DNA of 64,000 bases from positions 51,272-115,271 of the IMG/VR virus record IMGVR_UViG_3300037067_006113; one strand, written 5' to 3'. The translations under genes and the position numbers were made by a program. The DNA is from a virus (taxonomy: Duplodnaviria > Caudoviricetes). The notes below the pieces were generated by a model, which made no database searches, was not told the DNA's origin, and was given only the letters and a program-made list of their open reading frames with translations. Positions 14,834 through 18,771 of this stretch are shown here, piece after piece (positions within the stretch are counted from its first letter, which is position 1; the number at the start of each line of letters is the position of its first letter).

Positions 14834-14892
14834 TTAGAAATTAATCACTATACACTTGCGAGATTTAACAAGTGTATAGTGTCAACCTCTAA
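14834..14892 (-). repeat. intergenic hairpin family 1, copy 3
   Basis: TTAGAGGT-TGA-CACTATACACTTG(loop)CAAGTGTATAGTG-ATTA-ATTTCTAA. Confidence 0.8.
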
Positions 14893-14928
14893 ATTAAAAA
14901 ATCAGGCTAAATTAACTTAAAGAATAAC

Positions 14929-15486
14929 TTACCAACTTGAACTATATGAGAATTCTCCACCTTCAGCGATAGCTTCCTCACATATTTTCTTAGTTAGTTC
15001 TAGATCTGCAATATAATACTCATCGTATCCGGTAGATCCGAAAAAGCAACCTTCAGTTGTTGGTAACAATTCTTGTGCAACAGACGGATCTTTTATATAT
15101 CTACCCTTTACCATTATTGGAATTTTCTTACCGTTTTCATCAAAATTATATCCATTCTGGATTTCTCCTTTAACCAACTTTGACGCATTAAGAACTTTAT
15201 TTACAGTATCCAAAAGGTTTTGTAGATTTTCTGTAGTTACATAATATTCTTTGCAGTCGTCATTTCCATTTTGGATATTATCAACAAACCATTTATGGAT
15301 TGCATTAGCTTTACGCCAATAGCCAACTCTTTCAACTATTTCTGTTATTCTTTCTTCCTTTATTACTTTAGTTGGAAAGATAACGCCCTTCTGATTATTT
15401 GGAACTATTATTTTTACTCTTTGTTCTGGCTTACGGTATTCGTTTCCAATATATGTTTTCTTATTCAAATACATGTCTAAACCCAT
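14929..15486 (-). CDS. conserved phage hypothetical protein (stem-enclosed cassette 1)
   Basis: MGLDMYL...YWRKANAIHKWFV...DDC..Y...LLPT..G.FFGS..YD..Y...SSW pattern. Confidence 0.8.
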   Translation of the reverse strand: MGLDMYLNKKTYIGNEYRKPEQRVKIIVPNNQKGVIFPTKVIKEERITEIVERVGYWRKANAIHKWFVDNIQNGNDDCKEYYVTTENLQNLLDTVNKVLNASKLVKGEIQNGYNFDENGKKIPIMVKGRYIKDPSVAQELLPTTEGCFFGSTGYDEYYIADLELTKKICEEAIAEGGEFSYSSSW

Positions 15487-15557
15487 ATATATTCTTTCTG
15501 CCTGATTTTGTTTTCAACGTACAACTTAATTTAATAAAATATTTTACCTATTAAAGG

Positions 15558-15932
15558 TTATAATTCTGCTTCAAATTCGCATTTTCCTTCCTTCTTAACG
15601 CATTCTAAGATTTCATTTCCTAATCCTAATCTTGCATACCACTCTAGTAACTCTTTTGCCTTGTTAAGGGGAACGTTTAATTCTTTAACTATCATTTCAT
15701 CGTTATAACCATTGTTATCTTTAAAGAATTTATCTAATTTATCTTTATATTCTCCTAATTTTTTAATACATTTTCTAATACCTTTTTCTATACTTTCTAG
15801 ATCACTTGTCTCAAAATAATAGTTAAGATAATTTGGTTCACTTTCAATACCTCCAAAAAAACTTGCGTCATTTGAGGCCTGAACACCAAACCAAAACTTT
15901 CCTTCTATATCTCCACTATAATATCTACCCAT
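15558..15932 (-). CDS. conserved phage hypothetical protein
   Basis: MGRYYSGDIEGKFWFGVQ.S.DA..FG...YARL.LG..I..C.....C.F.AEL pattern. Confidence 0.8.
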   Translation of the reverse strand: MGRYYSGDIEGKFWFGVQASNDASFFGGIESEPNYLNYYFETSDLESIEKGIRKCIKKLGEYKDKLDKFFKDNNGYNDEMIVKELNVPLNKAKELLEWYARLGLGNEILECVKKEGKCEFEAEL

Positions 15933-15963
15933 ACTTATTCACCTTCTTTCAATTAAATTATTT

Positions 15964-16004
15964 ACTAGCCACAAGGTAGAATAAATCTACCCTGTCCGCC
16001 AATC
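15964..16004 (-). repeat. intergenic hairpin family 2, copy 1
   Basis: GATTGGC-GG-ACAGGGTAGA(TTTAT)TCTACCTTGT-G-GCTAGT. Confidence 0.65.
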
Positions 16005-16161
16005 TATAATTGACCTAACATGTAGTAGCATGAGTTAAGTTTGTGTTCTATTTCCTCTGATTTAATTCCTGCTATATTGAACAAACTTAATATACTTTTA
16101 TACTTATCTATGAGACCTTGAACATATTTATAATTGCTCATATATTCTCCTAATTAAATAC

Positions 16162-16214
16162 TTTAGAAATTCATCAGGAACTATGAATTATCATAATTCC
16201 TGTCAACCCCTAAA
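16162..16214 (-). repeat. intergenic hairpin family 1, copy 4
   Basis: TTTAGGGGT-TGA-CAGGAATTATGA(TAAT)TCATAGTTCCTG-ATGA-ATTTCTAAA. Confidence 0.8.
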
Positions 16215-16244
16215 TTAAAAAATCAGGTAAAAACAATTCAGTGA

Positions 16245-16550
16245 TTATTTTTCTTTCTGTTCCATAAGAATGTTGCCTACCACATCCCACTCTGCCAGTT
16301 CGCCTAATAGAACATTACCTTTTAATACATTGAAATGTGGATTTCTAACGTTTTTTTCATTAAAACGTGCCTCCTCGTCACCCCACATTGTACATTTACC
16401 ATAACCCAATCCTTTATAATAATCGGTTGGTATTATTTCAACAAATGTACACTGAAGTATGCGGTATAGTTCCTCTAAACTCTTTTTCTTTTTTGAAACA
16501 CCTAAATCTTTTTTAGATCCGTCTTGCTTTAATAAAATATATTTATACAT
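16245..16550 (-). CDS. DUF3846-like protein (stem-enclosed cassette 2)
   Basis: SLEEL...C..VEII...MWGDEEAR...RNP...VVGNIL. Confidence 0.7.
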   Translation of the reverse strand: MYKYILLKQDGSKKDLGVSKKKKSLEELYRILQCTFVEIIPTDYYKGLGYGKCTMWGDEEARFNEKNVRNPHFNVLKGNVLLGELAEWDVVGNILMEQKEK

Positions 16551-16601
16551 ATAAATAGACCTTTCTACCTGATTTTATTTTTAATGTGCTATCTTAAACT
16601 T

Positions 16602-16919
16602 TTAATCCCACCACAATCTAACTACAACCATATTTCCGCCTATTACTGGTATAATTGTATAATCATATTCATTAGCCGACATAGCAATTTTTCCTATTGC
16701 TAACGCTCTCTTATCAATTCCCAGAAGACTGATAACCAAAGTGTCTCTTTCATTCTTCCAGTAATTTATACCTTCTATATCTACAAAATTATAAACACCG
16801 ACCTCTTCGTCTAGTAGTTCTTTCAGCACTTTTCCACCTGGACAGTTATTAAACTCCTCCTCTATTTTAAGTGAGCTATCTTTTATATTTTCTTCTGTTA
16901 AACGCATATATTTATTCAC
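16602..16919 (-). CDS. hypothetical protein
   Basis: ends in RLWWD motif. Confidence 0.65.
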   Translation of the reverse strand: MNKYMRLTEENIKDSSLKIEEEFNNCPGGKVLKELLDEEVGVYNFVDIEGINYWKNERDTLVISLLGIDKRALAIGKIAMSANEYDYTIIPVIGGNMVVVRLWWD

Positions 16920-16947
16920 CTACAATCTATAATAATTTAATAAGATA

Positions 16948-17132: not shown

Positions 17133-17138
17133 ATAATT

Positions 17139-17205
17139 ACTAGCCAATTATTGTTAATAATCCCGCCCACTTGCAGACTAGCGAACAAATGGGCGAGAGC
17201 TAATC
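17139..17205 (-). repeat. intergenic hairpin family 2, copy 2 (branched)
   Basis: GATTAGC-TCTCGCCCATTTG(loop)CAAGTGGGCGGGA-TTATT(AAC)AATAA-TTG-GCTAGT. Confidence 0.6.
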
Positions 17206-17225
17206 TTATTACTTGCAATTATTCA

Positions 17226-17435
17226 TTATTCCAATGTTGTATGTTTATAAACGCCGTCCATTCTTAAATCGTCAATAAGACGTTCTGTATTTTGATATAA
17301 AATCTCAGTATCATTTATCTGTTCCAACTTTTCATATAGTTCGGTTGGAAAATTTTCCATTGACACATTTTGTACCTCTTGTGTTTTAGCCCAATTAGTT
17401 ATTATCTTTTTTTGACTTCCTGTTAGTTTTCTCAT
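17226..17435 (-). CDS. hypothetical protein
   Basis: GGGGGTGA SD. Confidence 0.65.
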   Translation of the reverse strand: MRKLTGSQKKIITNWAKTQEVQNVSMENFPTELYEKLEQINDTEILYQNTERLIDDLRMDGVYKHTTLE

Positions 17436-17466
17436 TTGATATCACCCCCTTAAATTAATTTTATAA

Positions 17467-17512
17467 ACTAACTACAAGGCGTAGCTCAAACTCTACGCCC
17501 TGTACGCTAATC
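17467..17512 (-). repeat. intergenic hairpin family 2, copy 3
   Basis: GATTAGC-G-TACAGGGCGTAG(loop)CTACGCCTTGTA-GTTAGT. Confidence 0.65.
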
Positions 17513-17877
17513 TACAATATAGGTTGACTTGAGCATTTACTGTTATATGGGTAATTATCTTGCTCTTTTTCAGTAGTTAAACATACACAAGTGCTATAGA
17601 GTAAATGCCAATGCATATCCATACCGCAACCACCAACTTTTACACTATCCCATGACATCTTATTGTTATAGCAAACATTGAGTAGCATATTATAGTGTAG
17701 AGTATTGAAATGTCTTAACATACCGGAACGGCTAACAGTCATAGAACAAACGACATTACCTTTTTTAATATCTTTTAGATAGTTTCTAGCGTCTTTTTTA
17801 AAATCTTCAAAACCATAATATCTGTTTTCGCCTTTTCTTTTATCAAAAATTGCTTGTAGTTTTTTATCACTTTTCAT
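17512..17877 (-). CDS. conserved phage hypothetical protein
   Basis: VSRSGM.R...VGGCGMDM motif; GGAGGTG SD. Confidence 0.75.
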   Translation of the reverse strand: MKSDKKLQAIFDKRKGENRYYGFEDFKKDARNYLKDIKKGNVVCSMTVSRSGMLRHFNTLHYNMLLNVCYNNKMSWDSVKVGGCGMDMHWHLLYSTCVCLTTEKEQDNYPYNSKCSSQPIL

Positions 17878-17910
17878 AAATTATTCACCTCCTTAAATAA
17901 AAATTATTCT

Positions 17911-18264
17911 TTAATTAGTGTCACTCTTATGAAGTAACGAGCTAACTTTGATTGTTCCAGCGTCAATAAGTCTATTTCGTTGCATATAGACAATCTCGCT
18001 TATTTTTTCCATTCCTATACTTGTGACCGTTCCTATAGCTTCGGCAATCGCCTTTTTTGCCGTTTCTTTTACTTGACTATTCGTTACGCGTAAACCTGTA
18101 GACAACTCGGATACGTCCCAGCTTTTATCGTAAATATAGGACTTATGAACTACAAAAGTAAAACCAAACATATCAAAGGCATGAAAACCTTTAACTTCTT
18201 GTTGTATTGGTTTATCCCGATTACCGTTATCTGTTACTGTAATATTAAATGTCATTTTTTTCAT
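17911..18264 (-). CDS. hypothetical protein
   Basis: W.VSELSTGL motif. Confidence 0.65.
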   Translation of the reverse strand: MKKMTFNITVTDNGNRDKPIQQEVKGFHAFDMFGFTFVVHKSYIYDKSWDVSELSTGLRVTNSQVKETAKKAIAEAIGTVTSIGMEKISEIVYMQRNRLIDAGTIKVSSLLHKSDTN

Positions 18265-18410
18265 ATTAAAAACCTTTCAAAAATTTATACTAATTCAAAC
18301 TTTTTATACCTTCCACACTTTTGGCAATATTCCACTTTATATACTTTCATAAGCGGATTTTGCCATTTATAACTTATTATTATAGGTTTTCTACATTTAC
18401 ACTTAATCAT

Positions 18411-18464
18411 ATTTATAAACTCATTACAGCTCACAGTCTTTATGAGCTGTATCAATCTCTAAAT
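18411..18464 (-). repeat. intergenic hairpin family 1, copy 6
   Basis: ATTTAGAGAT-TGA-TACAGCTCATA(AAGAC)TGTGAGCTGTA-ATGA-GTTTATAAAT. Confidence 0.8.
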
Positions 18465-18493
18465 TAAAAAATCGGGTTAAAATAACTTATTGA

Positions 18494-18724
18494 TTAAAAG
18501 AATGCACAAGGTACTTCATTGTTTGCAGATAACCCACTAGGAACGAAACCCAACTCGTCTTGCTGTATCTGTTCTTCATAACTCAGCTTTCTTTTTCTAC
18601 CCAAAAGGTTAGCTTCCGCTTTTATAAATCCCATTCTTTCCCCGTGTTCCTTAGAGAGTTTAATGTTTTTTCTAATCTGCTCTCTTTCTTCTTCAGTTTT
18701 GCAATCTTTAATGTATTTTGGCAT
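18494..18724 (-). CDS. hypothetical protein (stem-enclosed cassette 3)
   Basis: 76-aa ORF after AGAAAG SD-like motif. Confidence 0.65.
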   Translation of the reverse strand: MPKYIKDCKTEEEREQIRKNIKLSKEHGERMGFIKAEANLLGRKRKLSYEEQIQQDELGFVPSGLSANNEVPCAFF

Positions 18725-18771
18725 TTTATTTCTTTCTACCCGATTTTATTTTCAACGTGCTAACTTATTAC

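What the first reader, a model, noticed from the sequence alone, without database searches (positions are those of the whole stretch)
14834..18760. Single ORFs looped out by covarying long-range stems: an rRNA-operon-like cassette architecture on phage mRNA
Three unrelated minus-strand ORFs share one frame: boxA-like motif ending in the 5' arm - AGAAAG - ATG...stop - 3' arm - TTAATTTAG - family-1 hairpin. The 10-nt arms are perfect complements within each cassette but differ between cassettes at both ends together. They are AAAATCAGGC/GCCTGATTTT (15500-15509 / 14898-14907), AAAATCAGGT/ACCTGATTTT (16567-16576 / 16219-16228) and AAAATCGGGT/ACCCGATTTT (18738-18747 / 18468-18477). Two compensatory changes across 270-600 nt indicate selection for pairing that encloses the whole RBS plus ORF. 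This resembles the boxA/RNase III processing stalks around 16S/23S rRNA. Hypothesis: the phage co-opts Nus-assisted rRNA co-transcriptional folding and processing to excise, stabilise or circularise individual mRNAs. Alternatively the arms are DNA sites of an exchangeable gene cassette. This is the best candidate for an undescribed system in the window.
Basis: partly seen in the sequence, partly recalled or inferred. Interest (0 to 1): 0.9.

Follow-up and report, generated by a model that had tools for sequence, protein, structure and literature searches.

The report
Single phage genes wrapped by covarying stems
An uncultivated 115-kb phage and two other phage contigs carry small unrelated genes in the same portable frame, whose two ends stay complementary while their sequence changes, so they most likely pair in the mRNA across the whole gene; no described RNA or mobile-element family matched, and the function is untested.

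Summary
All three cassettes sit at the stated coordinates with perfect 10-nt arms.

I found three more cassettes with the same frame in two other phage contigs. The frame is: a 13-nt box, arm5, AGAARG, ATG..TAA, AAGTTATTTTA, arm3, then a conserved TTGA/ATGA hairpin. The six cargo ORFs are unrelated. There are five distinct arm sequences; 60 of 60 arm pairs are Watson-Crick, and all six variable columns are compensated.

One cassette is an AT-rich island in a GC-richer contig, so the unit probably moves whole.

Two further wrapped units lie in the window: an ORF at 22747-23169 (+) and a tRNA-like RNA at 20876-21022 (+).

The 3' hairpin is a separate sense-strand RNA element (20 pairs, 14 with compensatory changes). 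It also occurs without arms.

In all eight units, arm3 is followed by a U-rich tract, like the 3' half of an intrinsic terminator.

Best reading (about 0.45): a portable single-gene module whose ends pair in the mRNA, setting its 3' boundary and tying leader to tail.

The box matches boxA at 9-11 of 13 positions, the arms are too short for RNase III, and no RNA data exist.

No match in Rfam. The scan has noted stem-enclosed genes on other DNA before.

The parts
18748..18760 (-). Cassette C3: 13-nt 5' box GCACGTTGAAAAT, directly abutting arm5
18738..18747 (-). C3 arm5 AAAATCGGGT
18494..18737 (-). C3 weak SD AGAAAG (18737-18732) and 76-aa ORF (18724-18494). The ORF is an ORFan: only itself among 1.8 billion representatives
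18468..18488 (-). C3 pre-arm motif AAGTTATTTTA plus arm3 ACCCGATTTT (18477-18468)
18405..18467 (-). C3 U-rich linker TTAATTTAG and TTGA/ATGA hairpin (lower stem, bulges, variable upper stem)
16567..16589 (-). Cassette C2: 5' box GCACATTAAAAAT plus arm5 AAAATCAGGT (16576-16567)
16245..16566 (-). C2 AGAAAG (16566-16561) and 101-aa ORF (16550-16245). It has 12 homologues at 55-64% identity elsewhere
16219..16228 (-). C2 arm3 ACCTGATTTT. Pairing extends to 15 bp through AGAAA/TTTTT with one G.U
16155..16218 (-). C2 TTAATTTAG and TTGA/ATGA hairpin
15500..15522 (-). Cassette C1: 5' box GTACGTTGAAAAC plus arm5 AAAATCAGGC (15509-15500)
14929..15499 (-). C1 AGAAAG (15499-15494) and 185-aa ORF (15486-14929). 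The ORF belongs to a very large phage protein family (more than 7,900 homologues), which lacks arms elsewhere
14898..14907 (-). C1 arm3 GCCTGATTTT
14826..14897 (-). C1 TTAATTTAG and TTGA/ATGA hairpin
22747..23169 (+). Cassette E on the opposite strand. Arm5 is TTGCTGGA-agtcag-GCCAAGT (22747-22767), followed by TAAGAAAGG and a 113-aa ORF (22784-23125). AAGTTA follows the stop. Arm3 is ACTTGGC-TCCAGCAA (23155-23169), followed by TTATTATTT
20876..21022 (+). Wrapped tRNA-like RNA in the tRNA operon. TTGAAAAC box and TGAATAGGCTCG pair with CGAGCCTACTTAG+TTTTT, giving 17 pairs with one mismatch
17070..17143 (-). TTGA/ATGA hairpin without arms
14189..14257 (-). TTGA/ATGA hairpin without arms. Its lower stem begins at the stop codon of ORF 14492-14247
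13836..13910 (-). TTGA/ATGA hairpin without arms

Best explanation
Each unit is a portable single-gene expression module. Its frame is conserved: a 13-nt leader box, arm5, a weak Shine-Dalgarno AGAARG, any small ORF, TAA, AAGTTATTTTA, arm3, a U-rich tract, then a conserved TTGA/ATGA hairpin.

In the sense-strand RNA the two arms pair into a 9-15 bp closing helix, with the RBS and the whole ORF in its loop.

Inferred role: the closing helix, its U tract and the adjacent hairpin form the module's 3' boundary. They act as a gene-spanning ('split') terminator-like or processing structure that also ties the 5' leader to the 3' end. This would insulate and stabilise the cistron and let the module work wherever it lands. 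The conserved frame gives the homology through which cargo and whole modules are exchanged between phages.

Shown: the anatomy, the compensatory variation, the cross-genome distribution, the predicted pairing and the U-tract enrichment.

Inferred: that pairing occurs in RNA rather than single-stranded DNA, and what the pairing does.
For: - Six cassettes in three phage contigs share the frame and carry six unrelated ORFs.
- Arms: 60 of 60 Watson-Crick pairs. Six of ten columns vary and every change is on both sides. Own-versus-cross complementarity is 10 on the diagonal and 4-9 off it, apart from two cassettes that share identical arms.
- Within two sub-lineages of clearly homologous frames (C1/C2/C3/A and B/D) there are four double changes and no single ones.
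- Chance matches of this kind are rare: three unrelated sites among 413.
- Predicted pairing of the arm core is p >= 0.85. Duplex energies are -10.8 to -21 kcal/mol.
- All eight wrapped units have at least 6 T in the 10 nt after the G/C core of arm3. The background probability is 0.049 each.
- The adjoining hairpin is a sense-strand RNA structure. It has 20 pairs, 14 with compensatory changes, and frequent G.U. The covariance model scores 59 bits on the sense strand against 22 bits on the antisense.
- Cassette D is an AT-rich island directly behind a promoter-like site in a 45% GC contig.
- Frames A and C3 are nearly identical but hold different ORFs.
- Cargo families occur without arms elsewhere.
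- Long-range mRNA duplexes over hundreds of nucleotides are documented in Bacillus subtilis (PMC11780869).
Against: - There are no RNA data of any kind, so pairing, transcript ends and termination are unobserved.
- An intrinsic terminator with a 230-600 nt loop is kinetically implausible without help.
- The arms contain no G.U pair at all. A DNA-level constraint would predict that, and for an RNA stem it is only mildly unexpected.
- The sample is small, at most about four independent frame lineages.
- The effect of arm3 on RBS accessibility is inconsistent between cassettes, so no translational role follows from the fold.
- The host is unknown.
Confidence: 0.45

Rival explanations
1. rRNA-operon-like maturation. 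The 5' box is a boxA that loads host NusB/NusE onto RNA polymerase. The tethered arm5 is delivered to arm3 as arm3 emerges. The resulting stalk and/or the neighbouring hairpin is cut by host RNase III, releasing and stabilising monocistronic mRNAs.
For: - The box abuts arm5 in all six cassettes, and a TTGAAAAC box abuts the stem around the tRNA-like RNA.
- The box resembles GTTCTTTGAAAAC of Mollicute spacers at 11 of 13 positions (primer in PMC3019172). It matches the B. subtilis consensus AUGAUCUUUGAAA at 9 of 13 (PMC13753749).
- Delivery of a leader strand to its distant partner by the rrn complex is an accepted model (PMC8632103).
- The TTGA/ATGA hairpin is about 22 bp with bulges, which is RNase III size.
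- B. subtilis RNase III cuts long-range mRNA duplexes (PMC11780869).
Against: - The box has G or A at the position of the first U of the CUUU core, and A where boxA has U two positions earlier.
- Genome-wide matches to boxA with up to 2 mismatches are at chance level (5 seen, 5.7 expected).
- Arms of 9-10 bp are too short for RNase III by themselves.
- rrn-type complexes suppress termination, whereas arm3 carries a terminator-like U tract.
- The phage has no RNase III gene.
- Cassettes E and L200:8310 show that box and arms can occur separately.
Confidence: 0.2
2. An evolutionary by-product. An RBS plus ORF once landed in the loop of an ordinary A-tract/U-tract terminator. The frame then spread and its cargo was replaced. 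Under this reading the arms stay complementary only because the copies are young, or because the split hairpin keeps weak residual terminator function. Wrapping the gene has no purpose.
For: - The arm5/arm3 pair plus its U tract looks like a bidirectional terminator.
- This phage's ordinary terminator-like hairpins already have large loops of 24-30 nt.
- An unrelated phage group has the same 22-mer behind a local terminator hairpin.
Against: - Homologous frames have diverged at other positions, yet every arm change is compensated.
- Independent sequence solutions (units E and T) have the same geometry.
- All arms are perfect.
Confidence: 0.13
3. DNA-level element. The arms are ends or recombination sites of a mobile cassette, read as single-stranded DNA hairpins or as terminal inverted repeats, in the manner of integron attC sites, IS200/IS605 ends or ultra-small phage mobile elements.
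For: - The unit appears to move whole between unrelated genomes.
- The arms are perfect, with no G.U.
- An AAGTTA-like direct repeat precedes both arms in most cassettes.
- The TTGA/ATGA hairpin has an attC-like layout: conserved base, unpaired middle, variable top.
Against: - No tyrosine recombinase was found in a genome rated complete.
- Arm sequences differ between copies, so a sequence-reading transposase cannot be shared.
- The cargoes are unrelated and have no nuclease or transposase domain.
- The arms have a fixed register to the SD and the stop codon, and are always in the sense orientation.
- G.U pairs in the hairpin would be A.C mismatches on the other strand.
- No excision or inversion joints were seen (weak data).
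Confidence: 0.12
4. Translational control. The long-range helix and the U-run before arm3 mask the weak SD once the full transcript exists. This would limit cargo translation to a short co-transcriptional window, or couple it to termination at the stop codon.
For: - AGAAAG partly pairs with the TTTT before arm3. In C2 the helix runs 15 bp into the SD.
- SD accessibility drops in C2, A, B and E when arm3 is present.
- Cassette ORFs have weak SDs, whereas neighbouring genes have strong ones.
Against: - Accessibility is unchanged in C1 and rises in C3 and D.
- The helix mostly abuts the SD rather than covering it.
Confidence: 0.1

Closest known systems
Leader/spacer boxA plus long-range RNase III processing stalk of bacterial rRNA operons
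   Same: A short linear box lies just upstream of a 5' strand that pairs with a complement beyond the cargo, looping the cargo out. Delivery by the Nus-modified polymerase is an established model (PMC8632103).
   Different: The cargo here is a translated ORF. The helix is 9-15 bp rather than 20 bp or more. A U tract follows arm3. The match to boxA is only 9-11 of 13, and neither processing nor Nus binding has been shown.
PeSL (promoter-early stem-loop) cassettes of T4-like phages, and phage 'morons'
   Same: Small conserved regulatory modules frame variable, mostly unknown ORFs in plastic early regions, and appear to mediate their exchange (PMC2839356, PMC4122927).
   Different: PeSLs are direct repeats of a local stem-loop plus a sigma-70 promoter. 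Here the two flanks are different modules, no -10 box sits at promoter spacing, and the gene is bracketed by unique inverted arms that covary.
Long-range intramolecular mRNA duplexes cut by Bacillus subtilis RNase III
   Same: Pairing occurs across more than 100 nt within mRNAs of a Gram-positive bacterium (PMC11780869).
   Different: Those are individual host genes. They are not a portable frame reused around unrelated ORFs, and no covarying family was described.
RNase III sites between phage T7 early cistrons (own knowledge, not checked here)
   Same: Intercistronic hairpins with a conserved irregular middle and an upper and lower stem, resembling the TTGA/ATGA hairpin.
   Different: The T7 sites are local hairpins. 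No gene-spanning arms are involved.
Stem-enclosed small genes noted earlier in this scan (T5 hdi IRA/IRA', helix-clamped modules in Peregrinibacteria)
   Same: A small gene is bracketed by complementary segments that stay complementary as they change (notes e1-166580 and e1-4353523, which are unchecked AI notes).
   Different: The sequences, hosts and frame are different. Those have 28-bp stems or GC-rich modules with their own promoter.

Membership tests
rrn-type boxA / Nus antitermination site | Sequence match to the boxA consensus (E. coli UGCUCUUUAACA; B. subtilis AUGAUCUUUGAAA; Mollicute spacer GUUCUUUGAAAAC) | tested here: inconclusive
   The consensus here is GYACRTTRAWAAY, matching at 9-11 of 13. 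The CUUU core reads CGUU or CAUU. There is no genome-wide enrichment.
rrn-type boxA / Nus antitermination site | Binding of NusB-NusE and read-through of terminators | not testable with these tools
   No RNA-protein tool is available and the host is unknown.
RNase III processing stalk | Duplex of roughly two helical turns (about 20 bp or more) | tested here: not met
   The arms are 9-10 bp, 15 bp in C2 and E, and 17 bp in the tRNA-like unit. The adjacent TTGA/ATGA hairpin, at about 22 bp, would qualify by size.
RNase III processing stalk | Paired cleavage leaving 2-nt 3' overhangs, with transcript ends at the stalk | not testable with these tools
   No RNA run holds the sequence.
Intrinsic (Rho-independent) terminator | G/C-containing stem followed directly by a U tract | tested here: met
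   All eight units have at least 6 T in the 10 nt after the arm3 G/C core. The background mean is 2.9 and P(>=6) is 0.049.
Intrinsic (Rho-independent) terminator | Local hairpin with a short loop | tested here: not met
   The loop is the whole RBS plus ORF, 230-600 nt.
PeSL / moron cassette | Repeated composite of a local terminator stem-loop and a sigma-70 promoter on both sides of the ORF | tested here: not met
   TTGACA is present, but no -10 box lies 16-18 nt downstream; the hairpin starts there instead. The 5' and 3' flanks are different modules.
PeSL / moron cassette | Frames variable ORFs and travels between genomes | tested here: met
   Six unrelated cargoes in three contigs. Cassette D is an AT-rich island.
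Integron gene cassette (attC) | Integron integrase (tyrosine recombinase) nearby | tested here: not met
   PF00589 is absent from the complete 115-kb genome.
Integron gene cassette (attC) | RYYYAAC / GTTRRRY core sites | tested here: not met
   The lower stem TTTAGAG/CTCTAAA fits 5 of 7 positions at best, by inspection of alignment A1.
Transposon or MITE-like element with terminal inverted repeats | The same terminal repeat sequence in all copies, and a shared transposase | tested here: not met
   There are five different arm sequences. The cargoes are unrelated and have no known domain.
Any Rfam family | Covariance-model match | tested here: not met
   Only tRNAs reach gathering score. Nothing credible appears at E <= 5 in 13500-19500.
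Kink-turn (for the TTGA/ATGA hairpin) | Three-nt bulge followed by tandem sheared G.A pairs between a canonical and a non-canonical helix | tested here: inconclusive
   Invariant GA sits on the 5' strand next to the upper stem, and AUGA on the 3' strand, which fits the pattern. RNAalifold prefers a plain helix with two bulges. No 3-D test was possible.

The most novel reading that the evidence does not exclude
A cargo-agnostic 'gene-wrapping' RNA module. In this reading a boxA-type leader tethers the 5' arm to the elongating polymerase, so that it snaps onto the 3' arm as that arm emerges. This would create a gene-spanning terminator or processing stalk, meaning phage mRNAs matured by the logic of rRNA operons. 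The same frame would also serve as the homology handle by which phages swap single genes.
Probability: 0.15. Interest if true: 0.85.

Novelty: new variant of a known kind. Interest (0 to 1): 0.62.

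Why it matters
If the arms do pair in vivo, this is a compact natural device that makes a single gene portable between phage genomes. 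The device would carry its own boundary, stability and perhaps read-through control.

It would be a concrete, testable case of gene-length RNA loops acting in bacterial gene expression. It would also provide a sequence signature for finding recently exchanged accessory genes in phage metagenomes.

The TTGA/ATGA hairpin is itself an undescribed, well-supported RNA element. It is shared by a clade of uncultivated phages.

Tried and rejected
- Megablast of the region against GenBank phages gave no match.
- Collection scans with five DNA patterns returned mostly chance hits (viral; metagenome; bacterial genomes). Only L023 and L134 were real relatives.
- The six L004-L009 hits are one homologous site in another phage group. 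There the same 22-mer follows a local terminator and precedes a proper promoter. This is possibly convergence, and I did not use it as homology.
- Sequencing runs: only DNA metagenomes (landfill, groundwater) hold the stretch, and no RNA holder is listed.
- Laying four runs gave short, low-depth contigs identical to the window and no joint at any arm. The single joint, 14514->17771, has a 27-nt side and high depth, and probably comes from other DNA.
- The search for an empty site failed. Relatives of the L134 contig share only the upstream gene. The nearest relatives of the window's neighbouring gene are 73% identical and carry hairpins but no cassettes.
- Homologues of cargo C1 and C2 elsewhere have no arms.
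- RBS masking by arm3 gave inconsistent results.
- A 12-nt complement in L180 lies inside a coding region and lacks the frame, so I treated it as chance.
- Pairing of the 5' box with sequence behind the hairpin appears in the C1 and C3 folds only, so I dropped it.
- A hammerhead or other small ribozyme was considered from the CUGAUGA-like strings and rejected, because the junction strands are far too long and Rfam gave nothing.

Full report
**Setting**

The window is the right-hand 64 kb of a 115,271-bp IMG/VR virus record rated complete. Nearly all genes lie on the minus strand. A block of 20 tRNA genes sits on the plus strand at 19916-22689.

The finding lies just downstream, in minus-strand sense, of that block. 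It is in a run of about 14 small ORFs between promoter-like sites near 19680 and 13828. GC content is 33%. Neighbouring genes have strong Gram-positive-type Shine-Dalgarno sequences, and several promoters have the extended -10 box TGATATAAT. That points to a Firmicute-like host by inference only. The DNA is found in landfill and groundwater metagenomes.

**The observation**

The arm motifs are far above chance and occur nowhere else in the genome. The three ORFs (185, 101 and 76 aa) are unrelated to each other and have no Pfam domain.
- The first belongs to a very large phage family: 7,951 hits, capped.
- The second belongs to a small family of 12 homologues.
- The third is an ORFan among 1.8 billion representatives.

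**More copies elsewhere**

Pattern scans found two tandem cassettes (A and B) on IMG/VR contig 3300037067_006940 (locus L023). They found one cassette (D) on metagenome contig Ga0209518_1002749 (locus L134).

All six cassettes share this frame:
- a 13-nt box GYACRTTRAWAAY
- arm5, 9-10 nt
- AGAARG, then 7-10 nt, then ATG
- an ORF ending in TAA
- in five of the six, AAGTTAWTTT plus one more base (C2 lacks it)
- arm3
- a U-rich linker ending in TTAGRG
- RTTGA, a variable hairpin, then ATGAR..TCTAA

The six cargo ORFs show no similarity to one another, and none has a Pfam or informative PHROG match.

The arm sequences are AAAATCAGGC, AAAATCAGGT, AAAATCGGGT (twice), TAAAGACAGC and TAAACACGGC. Each has a perfect complement. 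In total, 60 of 60 pairs are Watson-Crick, and six of the ten columns vary, always on both sides. Each arm5 fits its own arm3 at 10 of 10 positions and other cassettes' arm3 at 4-9, apart from C3 and A, which share identical arms.

Frames B and D are clearly homologous to each other, as are C1/C2/C3/A. Within these two groups there are four double changes and no single change.

As a control, I scanned 413 AGAARG..ATG sites in 1.44 Mb of fetched phage DNA. Only three unrelated sites had a complement of 10 nt or more downstream. The best of these lies inside a coding region and lacks the frame.

**Two more wrapped units in the window**

It is enclosed by 7+8 bp arms with a 6-nt bulge, again with AAGAAAGG after arm5 and AAGTTA after the stop. 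I confirmed this.

In the tRNA operon, a tRNA-like RNA at about 20884-21017 is enclosed by a 17-pair stem. The 5' strand of that stem begins in a TTGAAAAC box.

So this phage uses the geometry 'box, 5' strand, cargo, 3' strand, U tract' with different sequences and different kinds of cargo.

**The 3' hairpin is a separate element**

Thirteen copies from the window, L023, L134 and two contigs of a related phage (L185, L186) align to one structure. It has a 9-bp lower stem, a bulged G, one A-U pair, a bulged purine and an upper stem of 10 bp or more.

Of its 20 pairs, 14 have compensatory changes. UUGA and AUGA are invariant. G.U pairs are frequent on the sense strand.

A covariance model built from these copies finds new copies in a further 119-kb phage contig (L200, up to 43.5 bits). 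It scores the antisense strand far lower (22 against 59 bits). In about 0.8 Mb of other loci it finds nothing beyond weak hits, at most 29 bits.

Three copies in the window have no arms. In several arm-less copies the lower stem starts at the stop codon of the upstream gene.

Rfam has no match. Its size and irregular middle fit an RNase III-type intercistronic site. The GA/AUGA signature also fits a kink-turn. Neither identity could be tested.

**Do the arms pair, and in what molecule?**

The equilibrium ensemble pairs the arm core at p >= 0.85 in each of the five cassettes folded. It also folds the hairpin 3-5 nt downstream of arm3. Duplex energies run from -10.8 to -21 kcal/mol.

These points favour RNA:
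- The units are always in the sense orientation.
- They keep a fixed register to the SD and the stop codon.
- They are contiguous with a demonstrably sense-strand RNA hairpin.
- Where the arm helix extends, it uses G.U (C2, and the tRNA-like unit).

One point counts against RNA: the ten core positions never show G.U.

For a DNA-level element I found no recombinase. PF00589 is absent, as are RNase III and sigma-70 region 2. There is no shared arm sequence for a transposase to read, and there are no excision or inversion joints, although the read data are thin.

**Mobility**

Cassette D is an AT-rich island in a contig of 45% GC. It sits immediately behind a TTGACA-17-TATTGT promoter-like site, and GC-rich sequence resumes right after the hairpin.

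Frames A and C3 are nearly identical, including their arms, but hold different ORFs and different upper hairpin stems.

Homologues of cargo C1 and C2 sit in other phages without any arms.

L200 carries a degenerate 5' module with no arm3.

Together this describes a frame that is reused around different genes and probably moves as a unit. That is functionally close to PeSL cassettes and morons (PMC2839356, PMC4122927), but the anatomy is different.

**What the helix does**

This part is inference.

In all eight units the G/C core of arm3 is followed by at least 6 T in 10 nt, against a background mean of 2.9 and P = 0.049 each. Arm5 is preceded by or contains an A run. The arm pair therefore has the form of an A-tract/U-tract intrinsic terminator whose loop is the whole gene. 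Ordinary terminator-like hairpins of this phage already have 24-30 nt loops.

I therefore favour a boundary role. The closing helix, with its U tract and the adjacent hairpin, sets the 3' end of the module by termination or processing. It also ties the leader to the tail, which would protect both ends and insulate the cistron.

A loop of this length makes co-transcriptional hairpin formation slow.

The box evidence is modest, however:
- It matches a Mollicute spacer box at 11 of 13 positions (PMC3019172) and the B. subtilis consensus at 9 of 13 (PMC13753749).
- It has a purine (G or A) inside the CUUU core.
- There is no genome-wide enrichment.
- rrn-type complexes oppose termination.

Masking of the RBS by arm3 is not a consistent prediction.

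**Verdict**

I rate this a new variant of known kinds, namely long-range processing or terminator stems and phage regulatory cassettes. Its function is unproven. This scan has noted stem-enclosed small genes on other DNA before, so the geometry may be more general than this family.

Noticed in passing
window 20876-21022 (+): A roughly 105-nt tRNA-like RNA, placed between tRNA genes, is enclosed by a 17-pair stem. The 5' strand of the stem starts in a TTGAAAAC box and a T run follows it. TTGAAAACTGAAT is identical to the 3' part of a conserved Mollicute 16S-23S spacer primer.
   Followed up: partly
window 22747-23169 (+): A fourth stem-enclosed ORF (113 aa, no known family) lies at the end of the tRNA operon. 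It has different 7+8 bp arms and a 6-nt bulge.
   Followed up: partly
window 17511-17436 and 16005-15933 (-): A second hairpin family occurs here: the stop codon TAG, then ATTRGCG, then a stem beginning ACAGGG and closing in CCTTGT. It lies directly upstream of strong SDs, and one copy scores as terminator-like.
   Followed up: no
window 17225-16908 (-): A 318-nt intergenic stretch holds several hairpins, including a TTGA/ATGA copy and a GC-rich stem.
   Followed up: no
L004-L009 (IMG/VR 3300045988 and others): Another phage group carries the identical 22-mer GATTTTTTAATTTAGGGGTTGA. It sits behind a local terminator hairpin and in front of a -10 box at 17 nt that is flanked by an inverted repeat.
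   Followed up: partly
L200:8310-8352: This is a degenerate 5' module (GTACTTGAAGGG, AAAGATCAGCT, AGAAAGG) in front of a 94-aa ORF, with no complementary arm3 downstream. It lies right after a homologue of cargo C2.
   Followed up: partly
L180:5165-5480: A 12-13 nt complement (TTACTTGATAAAT / ATTTATCAAGTAA) joins an AGAAAGG RBS region to a site inside the same ORF. It is probably chance, but at 12 nt it is unusual.
   Followed up: partly
window 13800-13828, 19873-19901; genome 26747-26837, 44323-44370, 50751-50798, 55639-55717: Repeated extended -10 promoters (TGATATAAT) with weak or absent -35 boxes. They probably mark the host-polymerase transcription units of this phage.
   Followed up: no
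L023:633-1031 vs genome 19905-20216: The two cassette-bearing phages share one protein at 95% identity in an otherwise weakly related background, which suggests recent exchange.
   Followed up: no
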